From contig JAPLVO010000010.1 of assembly GCA_026397045.1 (NCBI GenBank), positions 15,858-79,857 of the forward strand: 64,000 bases of DNA, given 5' to 3'. This DNA is from Patescibacteria group bacterium. GTDB lineage: Bacteria; Patescibacteriota; Saccharimonadia; CAILAD01; BJGX01. Within the stretch, counting starts at the first letter, position 1. Every line of letters starts with the position of its first letter. Positions 1,295 to 46,962 of this stretch are shown here, in pieces. Below the pieces are notes generated by a model, which saw nothing but the letters and a program-made list of their open reading frames with translations, had not been told where the DNA came from and did not search any database. Both the position numbers and the translations under genes were made by a program.

Positions 1295-2560
1295 ATGAAA
1301 AAAGTTATCAAAACTTCTAAATCCTTCTTCATTCGCCATAAAATCATTAGCTCATTGATTATTATTTTAGCTGTGCTGGTCGTGGGCGCTACTATTATAA
1401 GCCTAATCGACAGATCTAAAACGGCCATATATCAGTCTTCGATAGCTAGCTTTTATGATACTTCCAATATTGACATTGATGGGCCAGTTGGCCAGATGGT
1501 AAGATCCGAGCCAACAGCCACTAGCCTTAAAAACGGTACGGCTACAAGGGTAATTTATAGAACTCAAAAGGCCGATGGAACCAATACCTTTAGCTCTGGC
1601 ATGGTATACATACCAAGTACAAATTCACCTACCCCTAGGCCAGTAGTGGCCTGGGCTCACGGCACACTGGGGATGGGGGATGATTGTGCCCCATCAAGGC
1701 AACAAGATACTATAGCGAGCACTGGAATGGGTTGGGTCGATACAATGCTACAAAGAGGCTGGGTGGTTACCGCAACAGACTACGCTGGTTTTGGCACACC
1801 TGGCATTGAGGCATATTTAGTTGGGCAGGCAGAAGCTCATGATGTACTTAATAGCATTAGGGCACTTAGGGATTTGCCCGCAGCAAATGCTGGCAGCAGG
1901 TATGCTATTTGGGGGCATTCACAGGGAGGGCATTCGGCATTGTTTAGCTCGGATATGTCCACAGCCTACCTGCCAGAATATGAGCTAGTAGGTACCGCCG
2001 CCACGGCGCCAGCTGCTCAGCTTGAGTCGCTCTTATCCCAGCAATTTACAACTGCCGTTGCCTGGCTAATAGGCCCAGAAGTTGTGGTGTCTTGGCCCAA
2101 TAATTATAGCGGCTTGAGCCCTGAACAAGTACTGACCAAGCCCGGGCTCAACAACTATAAATCTATGGCCCAAGCCTGCATCAAGTCTGTAGCCATAGAT
2201 GGCATCATTAGACAGAAGATCGGACAAGATTTTTTTTCCCCCGAATTATTAAAATTGCCAGCCTGGAAGCAAGTTATTGCTGAGCAAACTGCACCAGTTC
2301 TAGGATCCAATCGGCCTCTTTTGGTAGGCGAGAGCCTGACTGATCAAGTGGTGCTGCCCAATACCACAGCTCAATACATACAGCGAGCTTGCCAATCGGG
2401 ATCCGACTTGACTTCAATATGGCTAACTGGTGTCGGCCATGTACAGCTACAATCAGTTATTTCCCCGAGTGTAATTAATTGGCTGGGCGATAGATTCGCA
2501 AACATACCCACATCACCTACCTGCAATCAGCCCCTGCCTATTACCCCGTCGCAGTCTTAG
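1295..2560 (+). CDS. Secreted lipase/esterase, alpha/beta-hydrolase fold
   Basis: N-terminal TM or signal anchor (IISSLIIILAVLVVGATII). Nucleophile-elbow pentapeptide GHSQGG in the sequence YAIWGHSQGGHSALF. Length fits LIP-type secretory lipases. Confidence 0.55.
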   Translation: MKKVIKTSKSFFIRHKIISSLIIILAVLVVGATIISLIDRSKTAIYQSSIASFYDTSNIDIDGPVGQMVRSEPTATSLKNGTATRVIYRTQKADGTNTFSSGMVYIPSTNSPTPRPVVAWAHGTLGMGDDCAPSRQQDTIASTGMGWVDTMLQRGWVVTATDYAGFGTPGIEAYLVGQAEAHDVLNSIRALRDLPAANAGSRYAIWGHSQGGHSALFSSDMSTAYLPEYELVGTAATAPAAQLESLLSQQFTTAVAWLIGPEVVVSWPNNYSGLSPEQVLTKPGLNNYKSMAQACIKSVAIDGIIRQKIGQDFFSPELLKLPAWKQVIAEQTAPVLGSNRPLLVGESLTDQVVLPNTTAQYIQRACQSGSDLTSIWLTGVGHVQLQSVISPSVINWLGDRFANIPTSPTCNQPLPITPSQS

Positions 2561-13374: not shown

Positions 13375-13513
13375 TAACTACCATTGATGAAAAAATCCTA
13401 AAAAAGACTGTTTTCAAGCTGTTATTATTACATATTGACCCTGTAATTTCAAGCTAGTAGGGGGCATATCGCCAAAGTAAAAACCCAACGCATAGGTTGG
13501 GTTTTTACTTTGG

Positions 13514-31038: not shown

Positions 31039-31135
31039 ATTTATTAACCTTAAGTATTATATTAACATGCCAGGGTAGTTAAAATAACATAAGCCCTCCA
31101 AATAAAAAACTCCCTAAAAGGAGTTCTTTATTTGG

Positions 31136-31209
31136 AGGGCCCAGTGAGACTCGAACTCACGACATGCTGCTTAAAAGGCAGCCGCTCTAACCAACTGAGC
31201 TATGGGCCC
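31136..31209 (-). tRNA. tRNA-Lys (anticodon TTT). CCA is encoded at 31133-31135.
   Basis: Reverse complement: gggcccatagctcagttggttagagcggctgcctTTTaagcagcatgtcgtgagttcgagtctcactgggccc-t-cca. Confidence 0.8.
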
Positions 31210-31577
31210 TCGTCGAACTATTGCTTAAGTTTATGTAAAATTAGTATAAACTAATTTACTTCAACCACCGCAACAGTTCTCCTCTCGATGTAACAAACAG
31301 AATTTAAGGTCTTGGTTTGTTCCATCGTAGAAAAGGTAAACCTTCAAAAGCTTGCACCAGCGCTTTATTTCTCGTCTCGATTTACGAAACAGACTTGGGG
31401 TCTTGGTTTCATAAATCGTTTAAGAAAAATAATCTAAAAAAAGTTTAGGAGCGTATATTTTAAGCTATTATGTATCTTTTATAACCTCAACATTATAAGT
31501 TTTATGTAATAATAAATCAATATCTGTACAGCCCTCATGCTTGGCCGCAACGAGCTTAAGCCGATAGAGTAGAGATT

Positions 31578-33008
31578 ATGCGAAGGCCAACTATAATAAT
31601 ATTATCCTGCATGAGCTTCATAGCTGGAACTATAGTTGGCTATAATTTTTTGTTCAGCCCTAACTTTTGGTGGACTGTATTCTGTATCTTTTCTGCGTTG
31701 GCCAGTCTGCTATTGTCGCGCAGATTAAAGTTTATACCGATTGTCCTATGCGGCGCTGTTCTGGGGCTGGCAATCATAACATATCAGCAAAACTATATAT
31801 CGCAATATGGCCTTTCGGGGTCGACCTACAAAAAGCTAGAGATTTCAGGGGATGTTAAGGGCGACCCCTATTGGGACAAAGATAGAAATTATGTTTTTAC
31901 ATTAACAAATCTTAATGTCGATGGATCTAGTAGGGTGGGCGATGTACGTATAAAAACATTTTCATCGGCCGTAAAAGAGGGCTATAGGGTAACGGTGGTC
32001 GGTAAGATATTCCCGATTATGGCTAAGCCAGGCTATCAAATAAGTTATGGCACAGTAAAGATCGCATCATTTAATCAGCCAGTAATGGTGATGGCCAAGC
32101 AGTTGTTCTATTCTGGGATAGATAGATCTCTCGAGGAATCCCCAGCCGGCTTTCTCAAGGGTATCCTAGTTGGAGCTAGGAGCTCATTGCCTCTACCCCT
32201 ACAGCAAACATTAAATGAAGTAGGCCTCTCGCATATTGTTGCGGTATCTGGGTATAACCTAACAATATTGGTGGTAATTCTCCAAAGACTATTAAAAAAG
32301 CGCTGGCTTTGGGCGAGCTTAATAATATCGCTCGCACTTGTCTGGAGCTTTACGATTCTAACAGGAGCCTCAGCTTCTATTTTGCGAGCTGCAGTAATGG
32401 CCACAGTGTTTTTGATAGCCAGCTACTATGGCCGGCCGTTGAGTGTTTTTACATGTATAAGTATTACCGCGGCTATAACATTATTAATTAATCCATCCTC
32501 TGCGGTAGAGGACATAGGCTGGCAATTATCATTTTTATCACTCACCGGGATAGTGGTACTGGCCCCAATTATAACTACCATACTTCCCAAAAAGACCCCA
32601 TTACTTAGCGATCTTGTGGCTGTTACTTTTGCCGCTCAAATTGCTACCGTTCCGTATTTACTATACTTATTCGGTAGCTACTCTATTGCCTCAATTATAT
32701 CTAATATGGTACTAATGCCCATCATTCCGCTAATGATGTTGGCCGGCTTTCTTATCGCTATTGTGGGTATACTAGCCCCTAGCTGGGGGTATATATTGGC
32801 GAGTCCACTGGCAAAGCTGATAAGTATTATCTTCGATTTCTTACAATATTTACAGTCTCAAAAGGGGTTAATAGTGGTTGTAAGACCGCAGACCTATGTA
32901 TTAGTTATATGGTACCTACTTATTTGTATACTTGGGGCTATAGTCTATCACCACAATCTCGATACCAGCCTTGCATCTTTCCAAATGCCAGATCGCTTGG
33001 TAAAATAA
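31578..33008 (+). CDS. comEC: Competence protein ComEC/Rec2 family: membrane channel domain only, with no metallo-beta-lactamase domain
   Basis: DUF4131-like N-terminus with OB-fold region. Competence-domain motif GLSHIVAVSGYNLTILV. Multi-pass TM. 476 aa. Confidence 0.6.
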   Translation: MRRPTIIILSCMSFIAGTIVGYNFLFSPNFWWTVFCIFSALASLLLSRRLKFIPIVLCGAVLGLAIITYQQNYISQYGLSGSTYKKLEISGDVKGDPYWDKDRNYVFTLTNLNVDGSSRVGDVRIKTFSSAVKEGYRVTVVGKIFPIMAKPGYQISYGTVKIASFNQPVMVMAKQLFYSGIDRSLEESPAGFLKGILVGARSSLPLPLQQTLNEVGLSHIVAVSGYNLTILVVILQRLLKKRWLWASLIISLALVWSFTILTGASASILRAAVMATVFLIASYYGRPLSVFTCISITAAITLLINPSSAVEDIGWQLSFLSLTGIVVLAPIITTILPKKTPLLSDLVAVTFAAQIATVPYLLYLFGSYSIASIISNMVLMPIIPLMMLAGFLIAIVGILAPSWGYILASPLAKLISIIFDFLQYLQSQKGLIVVVRPQTYVLVIWYLLICILGAIVYHHNLDTSLASFQMPDRLVK

Positions 33009-45438: not shown

Positions 45439-45512
45439 CACCTGGCTTCAGCCTAAAGACATAATAATAACCCCCATTAAAAAATGCCAGCTTTACTGGC
45501 ATCTTTTAATGG

Positions 45513-45587
45513 GGCGAGTGATGGGGCTTGAACCCACGACCTCCTGGACCACAACCAGGCGCTCTAACCAACTGAGCTACACCCGCC
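45513..45587 (-). tRNA. tRNA-His (anticodon GTG) with an encoded G at position -1. CCA is encoded at 45510-45512.
   Basis: Reverse complement: g-gcgggtgtagctcagttggttagagcgcctggttGTGgtccaggaggtcgtgggttcaagccccatcactcgc-c-cca. G-1 pairs with C73, a His identity element. Confidence 0.8.
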
Positions 45588-45623
45588 ACGGCGTCAGACA
45601 ACTACTTTGAAAATACTTTATGG

Positions 45624-45697
<74 letters not shown>

Positions 45698-45759
45698 TTA
45701 CATAGTTATTATACCCCAGATATAAATTAATCCCGGCAAGCGGGATAAATTTTTCATGG

Positions 45760-45831
45760 AGCGGGTAGCGGGGATCAAACCCGCATCTCCTGCTTGGAAG
45801 GCAGGAATAATAATCATTATACGATACCCGC
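45760..45831 (-). tRNA. tRNA-Gly (anticodon TCC). CCA is encoded at 45757-45759.
   Basis: Reverse complement: gcgggtatcgtataatgattattattcctgcctTCCaagcaggagatgcgggtttgatccccgctacccgc-t-cca. It has a U73 discriminator and a short D arm that closely resemble E. coli tRNA-Gly(UCC). Confidence 0.8.
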
Positions 45832-46055
45832 AAACAGAAGTGACGCACGAATGCGTCACTTACTGGATCAAATTGATTATTTCTACCAATTTGGGATATG
45901 AAAAGAAATAAAAGGTACAAGGACTAAAAATAAGCGCCTATAGTTAAAAAATTATATACTATTTATGAACTTACCGCAATATTACAGTTAGTAAGCAGAT
46001 CATTATTGTTAAAATTGTGTCATAATGGTATCAATAAATAATAACGAAAGGAAGT

Positions 46056-46445
46056 ATGAATAAATTAAAAAAATTAGCGGCAGTTATCACGGCACTAGCG
46101 AGCACTTTGCCAGTTTCTGCATTTGCTCAGGACGGATATGTATCTAGCTCATTATCGGATAATGCCCAACAAAATTCTGTTGGAGCAACAGGGGCGTTTT
46201 TATTATTCTTTATTGTACTATATGGAATATTTATTATTATTGGGATGGTACTATTCGTATTCTGGATTTTTATGTTGGTAGATGTATTCAAAAGAACCAA
46301 CTGGAAACAGGAAAACGATAAAACACTCTGGATTTTATTAGTTATATTGCTTTACCCAATAGGCTCAATTTTATATTTCTTCTTAGTAAAGAGAAAACTC
46401 GATAATAACAAAAACACCCTTACCGCCCCTCCAAGTGCGACCTAA
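46056..46445 (+). CDS. Small hypothetical membrane protein with a signal peptide
   Basis: 129-aa ORF sitting between two divergent tRNA clusters. Signal peptide plus 2 TM helices. Confidence 0.3.
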   Translation: MNKLKKLAAVITALASTLPVSAFAQDGYVSSSLSDNAQQNSVGATGAFLLFFIVLYGIFIIIGMVLFVFWIFMLVDVFKRTNWKQENDKTLWILLVILLYPIGSILYFFLVKRKLDNNKNTLTAPPSAT

Positions 46446-46566
46446 GTATATTAAAATACGAAAATATTTCAGCTACCAATTGCTAGCCGCTACAAAGCAC
46501 GGCCCCATACGGAATAGTTTTACTGGTAGATTGTTTCGCTTCTATATGCTAAAATAACCAAGATTA

Positions 46567-46640
46567 GCGCCCTTAGCTCAGCTGGATAGAGCGTCTGACT
46601 TCGGATCAGAAGGCCGGGGGTTCGAATCCCTCAGGGCGCA
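46567..46640 (+). tRNA. tRNA-Arg (anticodon TCG). CCA is encoded at 46641-46643.
   Basis: gcgcccttagctcagctggatagagcgtctgactTCGgatcagaaggccgggggttcgaatccctcagggcgc-a-cca. Stem tctga/tcaga, loop ctTCGga. Confidence 0.7.
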
Positions 46641-46673
46641 CCATAAAGTATTTTCAAAGTAGTTGTCTGACGA

Positions 46674-46747
46674 GGGCCAGTAGCTCAGTTGGTTAGAGCG
46701 GCTGCCTCTTAAGCAGCATGTCGCGGGTTCGAATCCCGCCTGGCCCT
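46674..46747 (+). tRNA. tRNA-Lys (anticodon CTT). CCA is encoded at 46748-46750.
   Basis: gggccagtagctcagttggttagagcggctgcctCTTaagcagcatgtcgcgggttcgaatcccgcctggccc-t-cca. Confidence 0.8.
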
Positions 46748-46849
46748 CCATAGTGTTTGCCTTCCTTTGCGATGGAACAAACCAGATTCTATATTCTGCT
46801 TGTTGCATCGAGGGGAAGACAAGTTAAGCTTACGAAAGCGATTTGGCAA

Positions 46850-46923
46850 CGGGGTGTGGCGCAGTTGGCTAGCGCGCGTCGTTTGGGACGATGAGGTCGA
46901 AGGTTCGAGTCCTTTCACCCCGA
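46850..46923 (+). tRNA. tRNA-Pro (anticodon TGG). CCA is encoded at 46924-46926.
   Basis: cggggtgtggcgcagttggctagcgcgcgtcgttTGGgacgatgaggtcgaaggttcgagtcctttcaccccg-a-cca. G37 fits Pro. Confidence 0.75.
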
Positions 46924-46934
46924 CCATAAAAAAT

Positions 46935-46962
46935 ACTCCAGCTTGTCTGGAGTCTTTTTTAT
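46935..46962 (+). terminator. Rho-independent terminator after the tRNA-Pro gene
   Basis: 7-bp stem actccag/ctggagt with loop cttgt, followed by CTTTTTTAT. Confidence 0.7.

What the first reader, a model, noticed from the sequence alone, without database searches (positions are those of the whole stretch)
31280..31420. Two tandem stem-loops with covarying stems upstream of comEC: candidate structured RNA element
Two blocks of about 45 nt lie in the intergenic region between tRNA-Lys(TTT) and comEC. Copy A is 31286-31327, cgatgtaacaaac-[agaatttaaggtcttg]-gtttgttccatcg. Copy B is 31378-31418, cgatttacgaaac-[agacttggggtcttg]-gtttcataaatcg. Each forms a 13-bp hairpin with a single mismatch. The loops are conserved (aga...ggtcttg). 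The stems differ between copies at 4-5 positions, yet each copy still pairs internally (gtaac/gttcc versus ttacg/cataa). That compensatory variation is what I would expect of a selected RNA structure, and not of an accidental palindrome. No ORF explains this region. It could be a tandem attenuator or riboregulator for comEC, a small RNA, or a miniature repeat family. A 15-nt exact reverse-complement of the copy-A stem arm (cgatggaacaaacca) recurs at 46770-46784 in a tRNA spacer.
Basis: seen in the sequence. Interest (0 to 1): 0.6.

Follow-up and report, generated by a model that had tools for sequence, protein, structure and literature searches.

The report
Structured hairpin modules inside tRNA precursor transcripts
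The two hairpins are real, but they belong to the tRNA-Lys gene on the opposite strand, not to comEC: they are copies of an undescribed, repeated, structured RNA module found only in the leaders and spacers of tRNA transcription units in a group of freshwater Saccharibacteria-like bacteria.

Summary
**Observation:** confirmed. Both 13-bp hairpins sit at the stated coordinates, and the 15-mer at 46770 is part of a third full copy.

**Interpretation:** partly right. It is a covarying RNA structure and a repeat family, but it is not a comEC element.
- Each copy is a longer hairpin of about 24 bp (HP1). In complete units a second hairpin domain (HP2) follows.
- All three window copies lie on the strand of an adjacent tRNA. 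Two are in the 5' leader of tRNA-Lys(UUU). One is between tRNA-Lys(CUU) and tRNA-Pro.

**Family:**
- Pattern scans and covariance-model searches found about 90 copies in 45 loci from Saccharibacteria-like Patescibacteria MAGs and lake metagenomes.
- In 80 of 80 cases with a tRNA in reach, the copy is upstream of that tRNA and on its strand. The nearest copy ends 49-62 nt from the tRNA in all but one case (window copy C, 15 nt).
- Stems covary, G·U pairs far outnumber A·C, and loop length varies.
- A conserved TTGATT-N17-TATAAT promoter lies upstream of all copies at tRNA-Lys(UUU) loci. Copy number per locus ranges from 0 to 4.
- Rfam has no match.

**Best reading:** a co-transcribed pre-tRNA leader/spacer module, released by RNase P. 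HP1 is probably a recognition hairpin for a dsRNA nuclease or another protein. The function is inferred, not shown.

**Main rival:** a selfish or neutral repeat that spreads by recombination.

The parts
31492..31520 (-). Sigma-70-type promoter TTGATT-N17-TATAAT of the tRNA-Lys(UUU) transcription unit, upstream of both hairpin units
   Evidence: 10 of 12 matches. Both hexamers are invariant in 10 tRNA-Lys(UUU) loci from different genomes, whether 1, 2 or 3 units follow (alignment A8).
31365..31432 (-). This is the type-2 stem variant CGAUUUAUGAAAC/GUUUCGUAAAUCG. Model match 31353-31440.
   Evidence: -25.0 kcal/mol, z -5.6; 88 bits.
31336..31364 (-). Remnant of unit B's 3' domain (GAGAAAUAAAGCGCUGGUGCAAGC..., the start of a class III HP2) plus the linker to unit A
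   Evidence: Alignment A4: win_B shares the AAUAAAGCG.UGGUGCA start of class III units and then stops.
31279..31335 (-). Layout: outer helix CUUUUCU/AGAGGAG, bulged A, CGAUG/CAUCG, a G·A mismatch, AACAAAC/GUUUGUU, a CA bulge, an apical AGA/UCU helix. Model match 31261-31349.
   Evidence: (100.6 bits).
31215..31278 (-). HP2 of unit A (class II): P2 AACUGUUGC/GCAAUAGUU, internal loop GGUGG, P2b, and P3 GUAAAUUAGU/ACUAAUUUUAC
   Evidence: Class II and class III versions keep the same architecture, with 12 HP2 pairs changed on both sides.
31133..31209 (-). tRNA-Lys(UUU), the gene the leader belongs to. It is preceded by the conserved ...UCGACGA junction.
31093..31140 (-). Intrinsic terminator (core hairpin 31108-31125 followed by a U run) that closes the tRNA-Lys unit
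46756..46823 (+). HP1 of unit C, in the spacer between tRNA-Lys(CUU) and tRNA-Pro(UGG). It contains the 15-mer at 46770-46784. Model match 46748-46835. Its 3' domain is short.
   Evidence: -28.5 kcal/mol, z -3.6; 88.5 bits.
46567..46953 (+). The tRNA operon that carries unit C: tRNA-Arg(UCG) 46567-46643, tRNA-Lys(CUU) 46674-46750, unit C, tRNA-Pro(UGG) 46850-46926, terminator 46935-46953

Best explanation
The hairpins are copies of a modular structured RNA element that is part of tRNA precursor transcripts in a clade of Saccharibacteria-like Patescibacteria. Shown or directly supported: a unit consists of HP1 and usually a second hairpin domain, HP2. HP1 is a hairpin of about 65 nt and about 24 bp with a conserved base (A / CGAU...AUCG / AGA), a purine-purine mismatch, a CA bulge 13 bp above the basal loop, and a variable apical loop. 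HP2 comes in several interchangeable sequence classes. Units sit only in 5' leaders and inter-tRNA spacers, always in the sense orientation of the tRNA, downstream of the operon promoter. Inferred mechanism: the units are transcribed with the tRNA and fold co-transcriptionally into stable hairpins. RNase P cuts them off at the tRNA 5' end, at the conserved ...GACGA junction. HP1, a two-turn duplex with sequence-conserved irregularities, is then the recognition site for a double-strand-specific endonuclease (RNase III class) or another RNA-binding protein. That factor would open the spacer so that the CCA-encoded 3' end of the upstream tRNA can be trimmed and the leader cleared. Copy number changes by unequal recombination and gene conversion between tRNA loci.
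For: 1. Orientation and position. All 3 window copies, and 80 of 80 copies elsewhere that have a tRNA within reach, lie on the tRNA's strand and upstream of it. The proximal copy's model end is 49-62 nt from the tRNA 5' end in all but one case (window copy C, 15 nt). The tRNAs are Lys-UUU, Lys-CUU, Pro-UGG, Pro-GGG, Met, His, Asp and Gln.
2. Structure.
- 96.2% of cells are paired, against 92.5% in shuffles (0 of 500 shuffles reach it) and 42-58% when partners are slid.
- Compensatory changes occur in the inner helix (GC>UA, AU>UG, CG>GC) and the apical helix (AU>CG in 21 of 76 distinct copies).
- HP2 classes II and III keep three helices, with 12 HP2 pairs changed on both sides.
3. RNA-level, strand-specific selection.
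- G·U cells number 171 against 55 A·C cells; in the inner helix the count is 30 against 5.
- The tRNA-sense strand folds 13.5 kcal/mol better over the whole leader.
- The gap between the 13-bp arms varies from about 14 to 24 nt. A hairpin tolerates that; a dimeric DNA-binding site would not.
4. Transcription.
- The TTGATT-N17-TATAAT promoter is invariant upstream of the most distal unit at ten tRNA-Lys(UUU) loci with 1 to 3 units.
- No other minus-strand promoter-like site lies between it and the tRNA in the window.
- Unit C lies inside an Arg-Lys-Pro operon that ends in a terminator.
5. RNase P RNA (class A) is encoded in related genomes.
6. Orientation follows the tRNA, not replication. Copies lie on both strands of a window whose cumulative GC skew rises monotonically.
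Against: - There is no expression or end-mapping data, so transcription is inferred from promoters and operon layout.
- The element is not universal. Only 2 of the 6 tRNA transcription units in the window carry it.
- The same spacer holds 0 to 3 copies in related genomes. That argues against an essential processing signal.
- RNase III was not found in the window or in the roughly 400 kb of fetched loci. That is uninformative rather than negative, but its presence in this lineage was not verified.
- The very high sequence conservation of HP1 is more than an RNase III site needs.
- Many copies are orthologues or tandem duplicates, so the counts overstate the number of independent events.
- Class I HP2 contains a conserved TGTTAAAAT that could be an extended -10 promoter rather than, or as well as, an RNA hairpin.
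Confidence: 0.45

Rival explanations
1. A selfish or neutral repeat. The module does nothing for the host. It persists in tRNA leaders and spacers because they are non-coding safe sites, and it spreads and shrinks by unequal crossing-over and gene conversion between units already present at several tRNA loci. Stable hairpins are retained only because unstructured or misfolding inserts next to a tRNA would be harmful.
For: - Presence is polymorphic. The Arg(UCU)-His spacer has 0 units in the window, 1 in L009 and 2 in L016. The Arg(UCG)-Lys spacer has 0 in the window, 1 in L014 and 2-3 in L006. The Met-Met spacer has 0 in the window and 2-3 in L007, L015 and L021.
- Different HP2 classes occupy the same locus in different genomes.
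- Truncated half-copies occur next to full ones.
- Up to 4 tandem units occur (L036).
Against: - Strong conservation of specific unpaired features (A/AGA loop, G·A mismatch, CA bulge) persists in divergent members whose stems have covaried (L040, L038).
- Position and orientation are strictly constrained.
- The elements persist in roughly 1-Mb streamlined genomes.
- No transposase, target-site duplication or non-tRNA copy was seen.
Confidence: 0.25
2. A tRNA-hitchhiking small RNA. The units use strong tRNA promoters and RNase P or 3'-end processing to be made and excised as abundant, stable RNAs of about 65-140 nt. These would act in trans, for example by binding or titrating a protein.
For: - Excision by RNase P is expected from the architecture.
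- The folds are very stable.
- HP1 has sequence-conserved irregularities at a fixed 13-bp spacing, typical of a protein-binding surface.
- Tandem arrays would raise the dose.
- RtT RNA of the E. coli tyrT operon and 3'ETS-leuZ are precedents (from my own knowledge, not tested here).
Against: - No conserved single-stranded seed is available for base pairing, because the loops vary.
- No partner protein was identified.
- Copy number variability, including loci with zero copies, suggests dosage is not tightly held.
- There is no expression evidence.
Confidence: 0.18
3. A DNA-level element: a palindromic operator or activator site, or a promoter-carrying cassette, for tRNA genes.
For: - The distance to the tRNA is fixed.
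- Class I units carry a conserved TGTTAAAAT about 30 nt before the tRNA, with HP1 ending 29 nt upstream of it.
- Copy C has a weak promoter-like match inside it.
Against: - Arm spacing varies by about 10 bp.
- G·U pairs exceed A·C pairs, a strand asymmetry that is meaningless for duplex DNA.
- Class II and III proximal units have no promoter-like site, yet they sit between the conserved promoter and the tRNA.
- The 23-24 bp arms are far longer than transcription-factor half-sites.
Confidence: 0.07
4. One reading: a tandem attenuator or riboregulator in the 5' UTR of comEC.
For: Adjacency in the window only. The plus strand also folds, but less well.
Against: - No plus-strand promoter lies upstream of the hairpins.
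- The conserved minus-strand promoter lies between comEC and the hairpins.
- The family occurs next to eight kinds of tRNA, mostly without comEC.
- No U tract follows the hairpins.
Confidence: 0.02

Closest known systems
RtT RNA (Rfam RF00391) and the repeated units of the E. coli tyrT operon (comparison from my own knowledge)
   Same: Repeated structured units embedded in a tRNA operon transcript and released by tRNA processing. Function uncertain.
   Different: No match to RF00391 or any other Rfam model. The units here lie upstream of or between tRNAs rather than in a 3' trailer. The sequence and fold differ. They occur at many different tRNA loci and in a different phylum.
Spacer-derived small RNAs such as 3'ETS-leuZ and the metZWV internal spacer of E. 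coli (from my own knowledge)
   Same: By-products of pre-tRNA processing that could have their own function.
   Different: Those are single-copy, largely unstructured base-pairing sponges made by RNase E. Here there is a multi-copy hairpin module with variable loops and no conserved seed.
RNase III processing hairpins (rRNA precursor stems, phage T7 R1.1-type sites). RNase III also co-purifies with rRNA and tRNA operon RNAs in S. aureus (PMC3386247).
   Same: An imperfect duplex of about 22-25 bp with internal loops or bulges inside a stable-RNA precursor.
   Different: Cleavage is untested. The sequence conservation and repeat-family behaviour are not typical of RNase III sites.
REP/BIME elements and hairpin-forming MITEs (for example Correia elements of Neisseria)
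   Same: Short, multi-copy, hairpin-forming intergenic repeats that are transcribed. Copy number varies between strains.
   Different: REPs and MITEs are dispersed among many gene contexts and in both orientations, often as inverted pairs. This family is confined to tRNA leaders and spacers and is always in sense orientation. No transposase partner or target-site duplication was seen.
tRNA-linked hairpin RNAs of eukaryotic systems (MHV68 tRNA-miRNA units, plant tRNA-snoRNA dicistrons) (from my own knowledge)
   Same: Hairpin RNAs that use a tRNA's promoter and tRNA-processing enzymes for their biogenesis.
   Different: Different domain of life, different enzymes and different gene order. The analogy is only functional.

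Membership tests
Any Rfam 15 family (including RtT RF00391, T-box, known leaders and ribozymes) | Score at or above the family's gathering threshold on the covariance model | tested here: not met
   Only tRNAs reach threshold in the window. At E<=10 the only overlapping hits are spurious miRNA or lncRNA models far below threshold. The same holds for complete units in L015 and for 18 related loci.
RtT-like tRNA-operon repeat RNA | Repeated unit located inside a tRNA transcription unit | tested here: met
RtT-like tRNA-operon repeat RNA | Released as a discrete RNA by tRNA processing | not testable with these tools
   Needs RNA-seq or Northern blots.
Intrinsic terminator or attenuator | G+C-rich hairpin followed directly by a U run | tested here: not met
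   HP1 is followed by GAGAAC.../GAAGACAAG.... The terminator scan finds sites only after the tRNAs.
REP/BIME | Many copies dispersed in varied intergenic contexts, commonly as inverted pairs | tested here: not met
   All copies are next to tRNAs and in one orientation relative to the tRNA.
REP/BIME | Associated RAYT (TnpA-REP) gene in the genome | not tested
MITE | Terminal inverted repeats flanked by a target-site duplication; empty and filled sites differ by a clean insertion | tested here: inconclusive
   Empty spacers in the window and filled spacers elsewhere share only the 3' AAGUAGUUGUCUGACG tail. No duplication was recognisable.
IS200/IS605-derived palindrome elements (PATE) | Hairpins recognised as single-stranded DNA, with orientation tied to the replication strand, and a related transposase-bearing element | tested here: not met
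   Copies lie on both strands of a window with monotonic GC skew, each matching its tRNA. No copy is next to a transposase in about 400 kb of loci.
Integron attC | R''/R' core sites (RYYYAAC / GTTRRRY) and cassette ORFs between the sites | tested here: not met
   By reading: the arms do not fit GTTRRRY (GTTACAT), and there are no ORFs between copies.
CRISPR array or type III antitoxin RNA array | Short repeats with unique spacers and cas genes, or tandem repeats directly upstream of a toxin gene | tested here: not met
   Units are 90-140 nt with shared, not unique, inter-hairpin sequence. The downstream gene is always a tRNA.
RNase III substrate | About two turns (20 bp or more) of largely regular dsRNA | tested here: met
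   Predicted hairpin of 23-24 bp. This rests on prediction only.
RNase III substrate | Cleaved by RNase III; enzyme encoded in the genome | not testable with these tools
   No RNase III signature in the window or in the loci held. Complete genomes were not searched.

The most novel reading that the evidence does not exclude
A previously unrecognised class of bacterial RNA that hitchhikes on tRNA genes. Tandem HP1-HP2 modules would use tRNA promoters and RNase P to be produced and excised as abundant stable RNAs. Those RNAs would bind a lineage-specific protein and have their own trans-acting role in Saccharibacteria, a prokaryotic counterpart of tRNA-linked snoRNA or miRNA biogenesis.
Probability: 0.18. 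Interest if true: 0.75.

Novelty: new variant of a known kind. Interest (0 to 1): 0.55.

Why it matters
Patescibacteria have very small genomes with little non-coding DNA. Even so, this clade keeps roughly ten copies per genome of a 90-140-nt structured module, placed only in tRNA precursors. If the module is a processing or stability signal, it shows a lineage-specific addition to tRNA maturation in organisms whose RNA metabolism is almost unstudied. If it is an excised stable RNA, it would be a new biogenesis route for bacterial small RNAs. If it is selfish, it is a rare case of a repeat family restricted to one class of transcription unit. In any of these cases it is a well-defined candidate for a new Rfam family: about 75 distinct sequences, clear covariation, and a simple context rule.

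Tried and rejected
- **Rfam.** Searches of the window, the region, a complete unit in L015 and 18 related loci found nothing but tRNAs and RNase P RNA.
- **More copies in the window.** An unfiltered covariance-model search found only the three. The weak palindrome at 13473-13512 is an ordinary terminator between two tRNA-Met genes.
- **Viral contigs.** The pattern scan found no match.
- **RNase III.** A scan for its signature in the window's six frames and in the loci found none. This is uninformative because only fragments of genomes were available.
- **Literature.** Five full-text searches gave no description of the element. The 2026 paper on tRNA introns in Patescibacteria (PMC13011429) does not mention it.
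- **Small ORF behind the SD-like GAGGAG.** Considered and rejected, because no reading frame is conserved between the HP2 classes.
- **boxA/Nus antitermination site.** Considered and rejected: resemblance is poor and the sequence is buried in a helix.
- **K-turn at the basal loop.** Considered and rejected: the opposite strand lacks the required G·A pairs.
- **T-box, attC, CRISPR and type III antitoxin.** Rejected; see the membership table.
- **Class I HP2 structure.** RNAalifold gave an unconvincing consensus. Manual counting supports a 5-bp CUACG/CGUAG helix only weakly. Whether this segment is an RNA hairpin, an extended -10 promoter or both stays open.

Full report
**1.

The sequence and the repeat finder show two inverted repeats with 13-nt arms: 31286-31298/31315-31327 and 31378-31390/31406-31418. 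Each is 92% complementary, with gaps of 16 and 15 nt. The 15-mer CGATGGAACAAACCA recurs exactly at 46770-46784. Two independent assemblies from other samples are identical to the window over 31135-31580, so this is not an assembly artefact.

**2. The element is larger than described and lies on the other strand**

- The direct repeat extends to about 90 nt per copy (family D1; alignment A1).
- The match at 46770 is a complete third copy at 46748-46835 in the opposite orientation.
- The 13-bp stem continues outward. A pyrimidine-rich 5' flank pairs with AGAGGAG or AGGGGAAG on the 3' side, which gives a hairpin of 23-24 bp that I call HP1.
- The two copies in the finding are in the sense orientation of tRNA-Lys(UUU) (31133-31209, minus strand) and lie upstream of it. 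The third copy lies between tRNA-Lys(CUU) and tRNA-Pro(UGG) on the plus strand.
- Folding favours the tRNA-sense strand for each copy: -22.5, -25.0 and -28.5 kcal/mol against -18.1, -19.1 and -27.1.
- It also favours that strand for the whole 277-nt leader: -76.9 kcal/mol (z -5.5) against -63.4 (z -4.2).
- A covariance model of the three copies finds no further copy in the window.

**3. It is a family, and the family is tied to tRNA genes**

- A degenerate pattern scan of one genome per species returned 19 loci from seven MAGs labelled Patescibacteria (UBA4664), Candidatus Saccharibacteria or simply "bacterium".
- A scan of metagenome contigs returned 26 more loci. A scan of viral contigs returned none.
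- Covariance-model searches of these loci give about 82 strong copies (51-96 bits) and about 10 weaker or divergent ones. The opposite strand of each copy scores only 22-42 bits.
- I combined the hits with ARAGORN results. Every copy that has a tRNA in reach (80 of 80) is upstream of that tRNA and on its strand.
- The copy nearest the tRNA ends 49-62 nt from the tRNA 5' end in all but one case (window copy C, 15 nt).
- The tRNAs are Lys-UUU, Lys-CUU, Pro-UGG, Pro-GGG, Met and His. In more divergent contigs they are Asp (L040) and Gln (L038, L045).
- Copies that lack a tRNA in reach are all at contig or locus ends.
- These copies are not independent events, because many are orthologues or tandem duplicates. 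Even so, eight different tRNA contexts show the same rule.

**4. Evidence for a selected RNA structure**

- On 41 copies, 96.2% of cells form standard pairs, against 92.5% in column shuffles (0 of 500 shuffles reach it) and 42-58% when partners are slid.
- A minority stem variant, which includes window copy B, changes three inner pairs together: GC>UA, AU>UG and CG>GC. It also closes the G·A mismatch.
- The apical helix switches AU>CG in 21 of 76 distinct copies.
- One-sided changes are almost always to G·U. There are 171 G·U cells against 55 A·C cells. Most of the A·C cells fall at three outer-helix positions whose register is ambiguous. In the inner helix the count is 30 against 5.
- The apical loop varies from 4 to about 20 nt.
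- Some unpaired features are kept even in L040 and L038, whose stems have covaried: the bulged A and the AGA at the base, the purine-purine mismatch, and the CA bulge exactly 13 bp above the basal loop.
- This pattern fits an RNA hairpin recognised by a protein. It does not fit a duplex-DNA operator, which would need fixed arm spacing and would gain nothing from G·T pairs.

**5. Complete units have a second domain**

Alignments of whole units (A4 and A5) show several classes of sequence following HP1.

- Class II (window copy A, 31215-31278) and class III share a three-tier hairpin: P2, internal loop GGUGG, P2b and P3. Twelve HP2 pairs are changed on both sides between the two classes (15 across the whole structure), and 95.7% of cells in the whole structure are paired.
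- Class I has a short CUACG/CGUAG helix around a very conserved CAGAAUUUGUUAAAAUUAUG. Support for pairing there is weak. The segment could instead, or also, be an extended -10 promoter (TGTTAAAAT).
- Every unit next to a tRNA ends in ...GACGA or a close variant immediately before the tRNA.

**6. Transcription context**

- In the window, the only promoter-like site on the tRNA strand within 450 nt upstream of tRNA-Lys(UUU) is TTGATT-N17-TATAAT at 31520->31492, upstream of both units. A terminator follows the tRNA.
- I aligned the region upstream of the most distal unit from ten tRNA-Lys(UUU) loci. Both hexamers are invariant while the surrounding sequence varies, and one, two or three units lie between this promoter and the tRNA.
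- Unit C lies inside an Arg-Lys-Pro operon that has a single terminator after tRNA-Pro.
- Class A RNase P RNA is encoded in related contigs, so cleavage at the tRNA 5' end should release the leader.
- All of this is inference from sequence. I had no expression data.

**7. Dynamics**

- The same spacer holds different numbers of units in related genomes. Arg(UCU)-His has 0 in the window, 1 in L009 and 2 in L016. Arg(UCG)-Lys(CUU) has 0 in the window, 1 in L014 and 2-3 in L006. Met-Met has 0 in the window and 2-3 in L007, L015 and L021. One short contig, L036, has up to 4 tandem units.
- The same locus carries different HP2 classes in different genomes. The same 55-nt class II tail precedes tRNA-Lys in the window and tRNA-Met in L015.
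- Truncated half-copies lie next to full ones.
- Spacers without a unit still carry the 3' tail AAGUAGUUGUCUGACG.
- This points to unequal recombination and gene conversion among units. No transposase, target-site duplication or non-tRNA copy was seen.

**8. Mechanism**

- Best-supported: a cis element of pre-tRNA transcripts. It is co-transcribed, folds into stable hairpins and is cut off by RNase P.
- I infer that HP1 is a recognition hairpin for a double-strand-specific nuclease of the RNase III class, or for another protein.
- Such a cut would be useful in spacers. HP1 begins about 10 nt after an encoded CCA end and would otherwise block 3' exonucleolytic trimming.
- I put about 0.85 on [quoted passage not shown] and about 0.45 on the full mechanistic statement.
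- The main rival, at 0.25, is a selfish or neutral repeat confined to tRNA leaders. The presence/absence polymorphism favours it.
- A released trans-acting stable RNA gets 0.18, a DNA-level operator or promoter cassette 0.07, and a comEC riboregulator 0.02.

**9. Comparison with known elements**

- No Rfam family matches, and five full-text literature searches found no description.
- The closest known kinds are the repeated RtT units of the E. coli tyrT operon and spacer-derived small RNAs, which share the position in a tRNA transcript. These comparisons are from my own knowledge.
- RNase III processing hairpins share the shape. REP and MITE families share the repeat behaviour.
- This element differs from each of them in a defining respect (see the membership table). 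I therefore class it as a new variant of a known kind, namely a new RNA family of the tRNA-operon spacer type.

**10. Verdict**

The finding is real and more substantial than described, but its assignment to comEC is wrong. Interest is moderate to fairly high (0.55). It is a clean, previously unannotated structured-RNA family with an unusual, strict context in a poorly understood phylum. It has no demonstrated function.

Noticed in passing
window 45591-45620 (-) and 46644-46673 (+): The spacers that follow tRNA-Arg(UCU) and tRNA-Arg(UCG) are nearly identical (TAAAGTATTTTCAAAGTAGTTGTCTGACG). They end in the same AAGUAGUUGUCUGACG tail that closes class I hairpin units elsewhere. They look like 'empty' or collapsed versions of unit-bearing spacers.
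   Followed up: partly
window 31093-31140: The terminator after tRNA-Lys(UUU) sits inside a longer 14-nt inverted repeat (GCCCTCCAAATAAA / TTTATTTGGAGGGC). One arm of that repeat is the 3' acceptor end of the tRNA itself.
   Followed up: no
L008 407-998, L004 5595-6194, L017 4844-5243: Class A RNase P RNA genes in related MAGs span about 590-600 nt against a 367-position model. This implies large insertions. They lie about 5 kb from tRNA-Pro(GGG) loci that carry the hairpin units.
   Followed up: no
L038 2640-3000 (-) and L045 6300-6480 (+): After a divergent HP1 leader comes a tRNA-Gln 5' part (UGGGGUGUAGCCAAGUGGU). It is interrupted after the D arm by about 160 nt, and then a complete tRNA-Gln follows. 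This could be an intron-containing gene or a rearranged or duplicated one. Group I introns in Patescibacteria tRNAs are described in PMC13011429, but not at this position as far as I checked.
   Followed up: partly
L009 4705-4730, L016 1345-1368, L015 about 1660-1680 (-), L006 6400-6440 (-): Truncated or degenerate half-copies of HP1 (GAGAAACCAAGACCCC...) lie directly upstream of the first full unit. They look like scars of unequal recombination.
   Followed up: partly
window 46767-46795 (+): A weak sigma-70-like match (TTGCGA-17-TATATT, 9 of 12) lies inside hairpin copy C. Its -10 falls in a loop sequence unique to this copy. It is probably chance, but it could give tRNA-Pro its own promoter.
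   Followed up: no
window 31578-33008 (+): The comEC-like ORF has 476 aa and only the Competence and DUF4131 domains. The metallo-beta-lactamase domain of full-length ComEC is absent.
   Followed up: no
L001, L047, L048 (Logan assemblies of SRR20698640, SRR20698643, SRR20698644): Independent short-read contigs of this genome all end inside or next to tRNA-Lys(UUU), not in the hairpin units.
   Followed up: no
window 45510-46926: The divergent tRNA clusters Gly-Arg-His (minus strand) and Arg-Lys-Pro (plus strand) keep the same order in the related genomes (L006, L009, L016, L027, L032, L035). Their spacers differ mainly in the number of hairpin units.
   Followed up: partly
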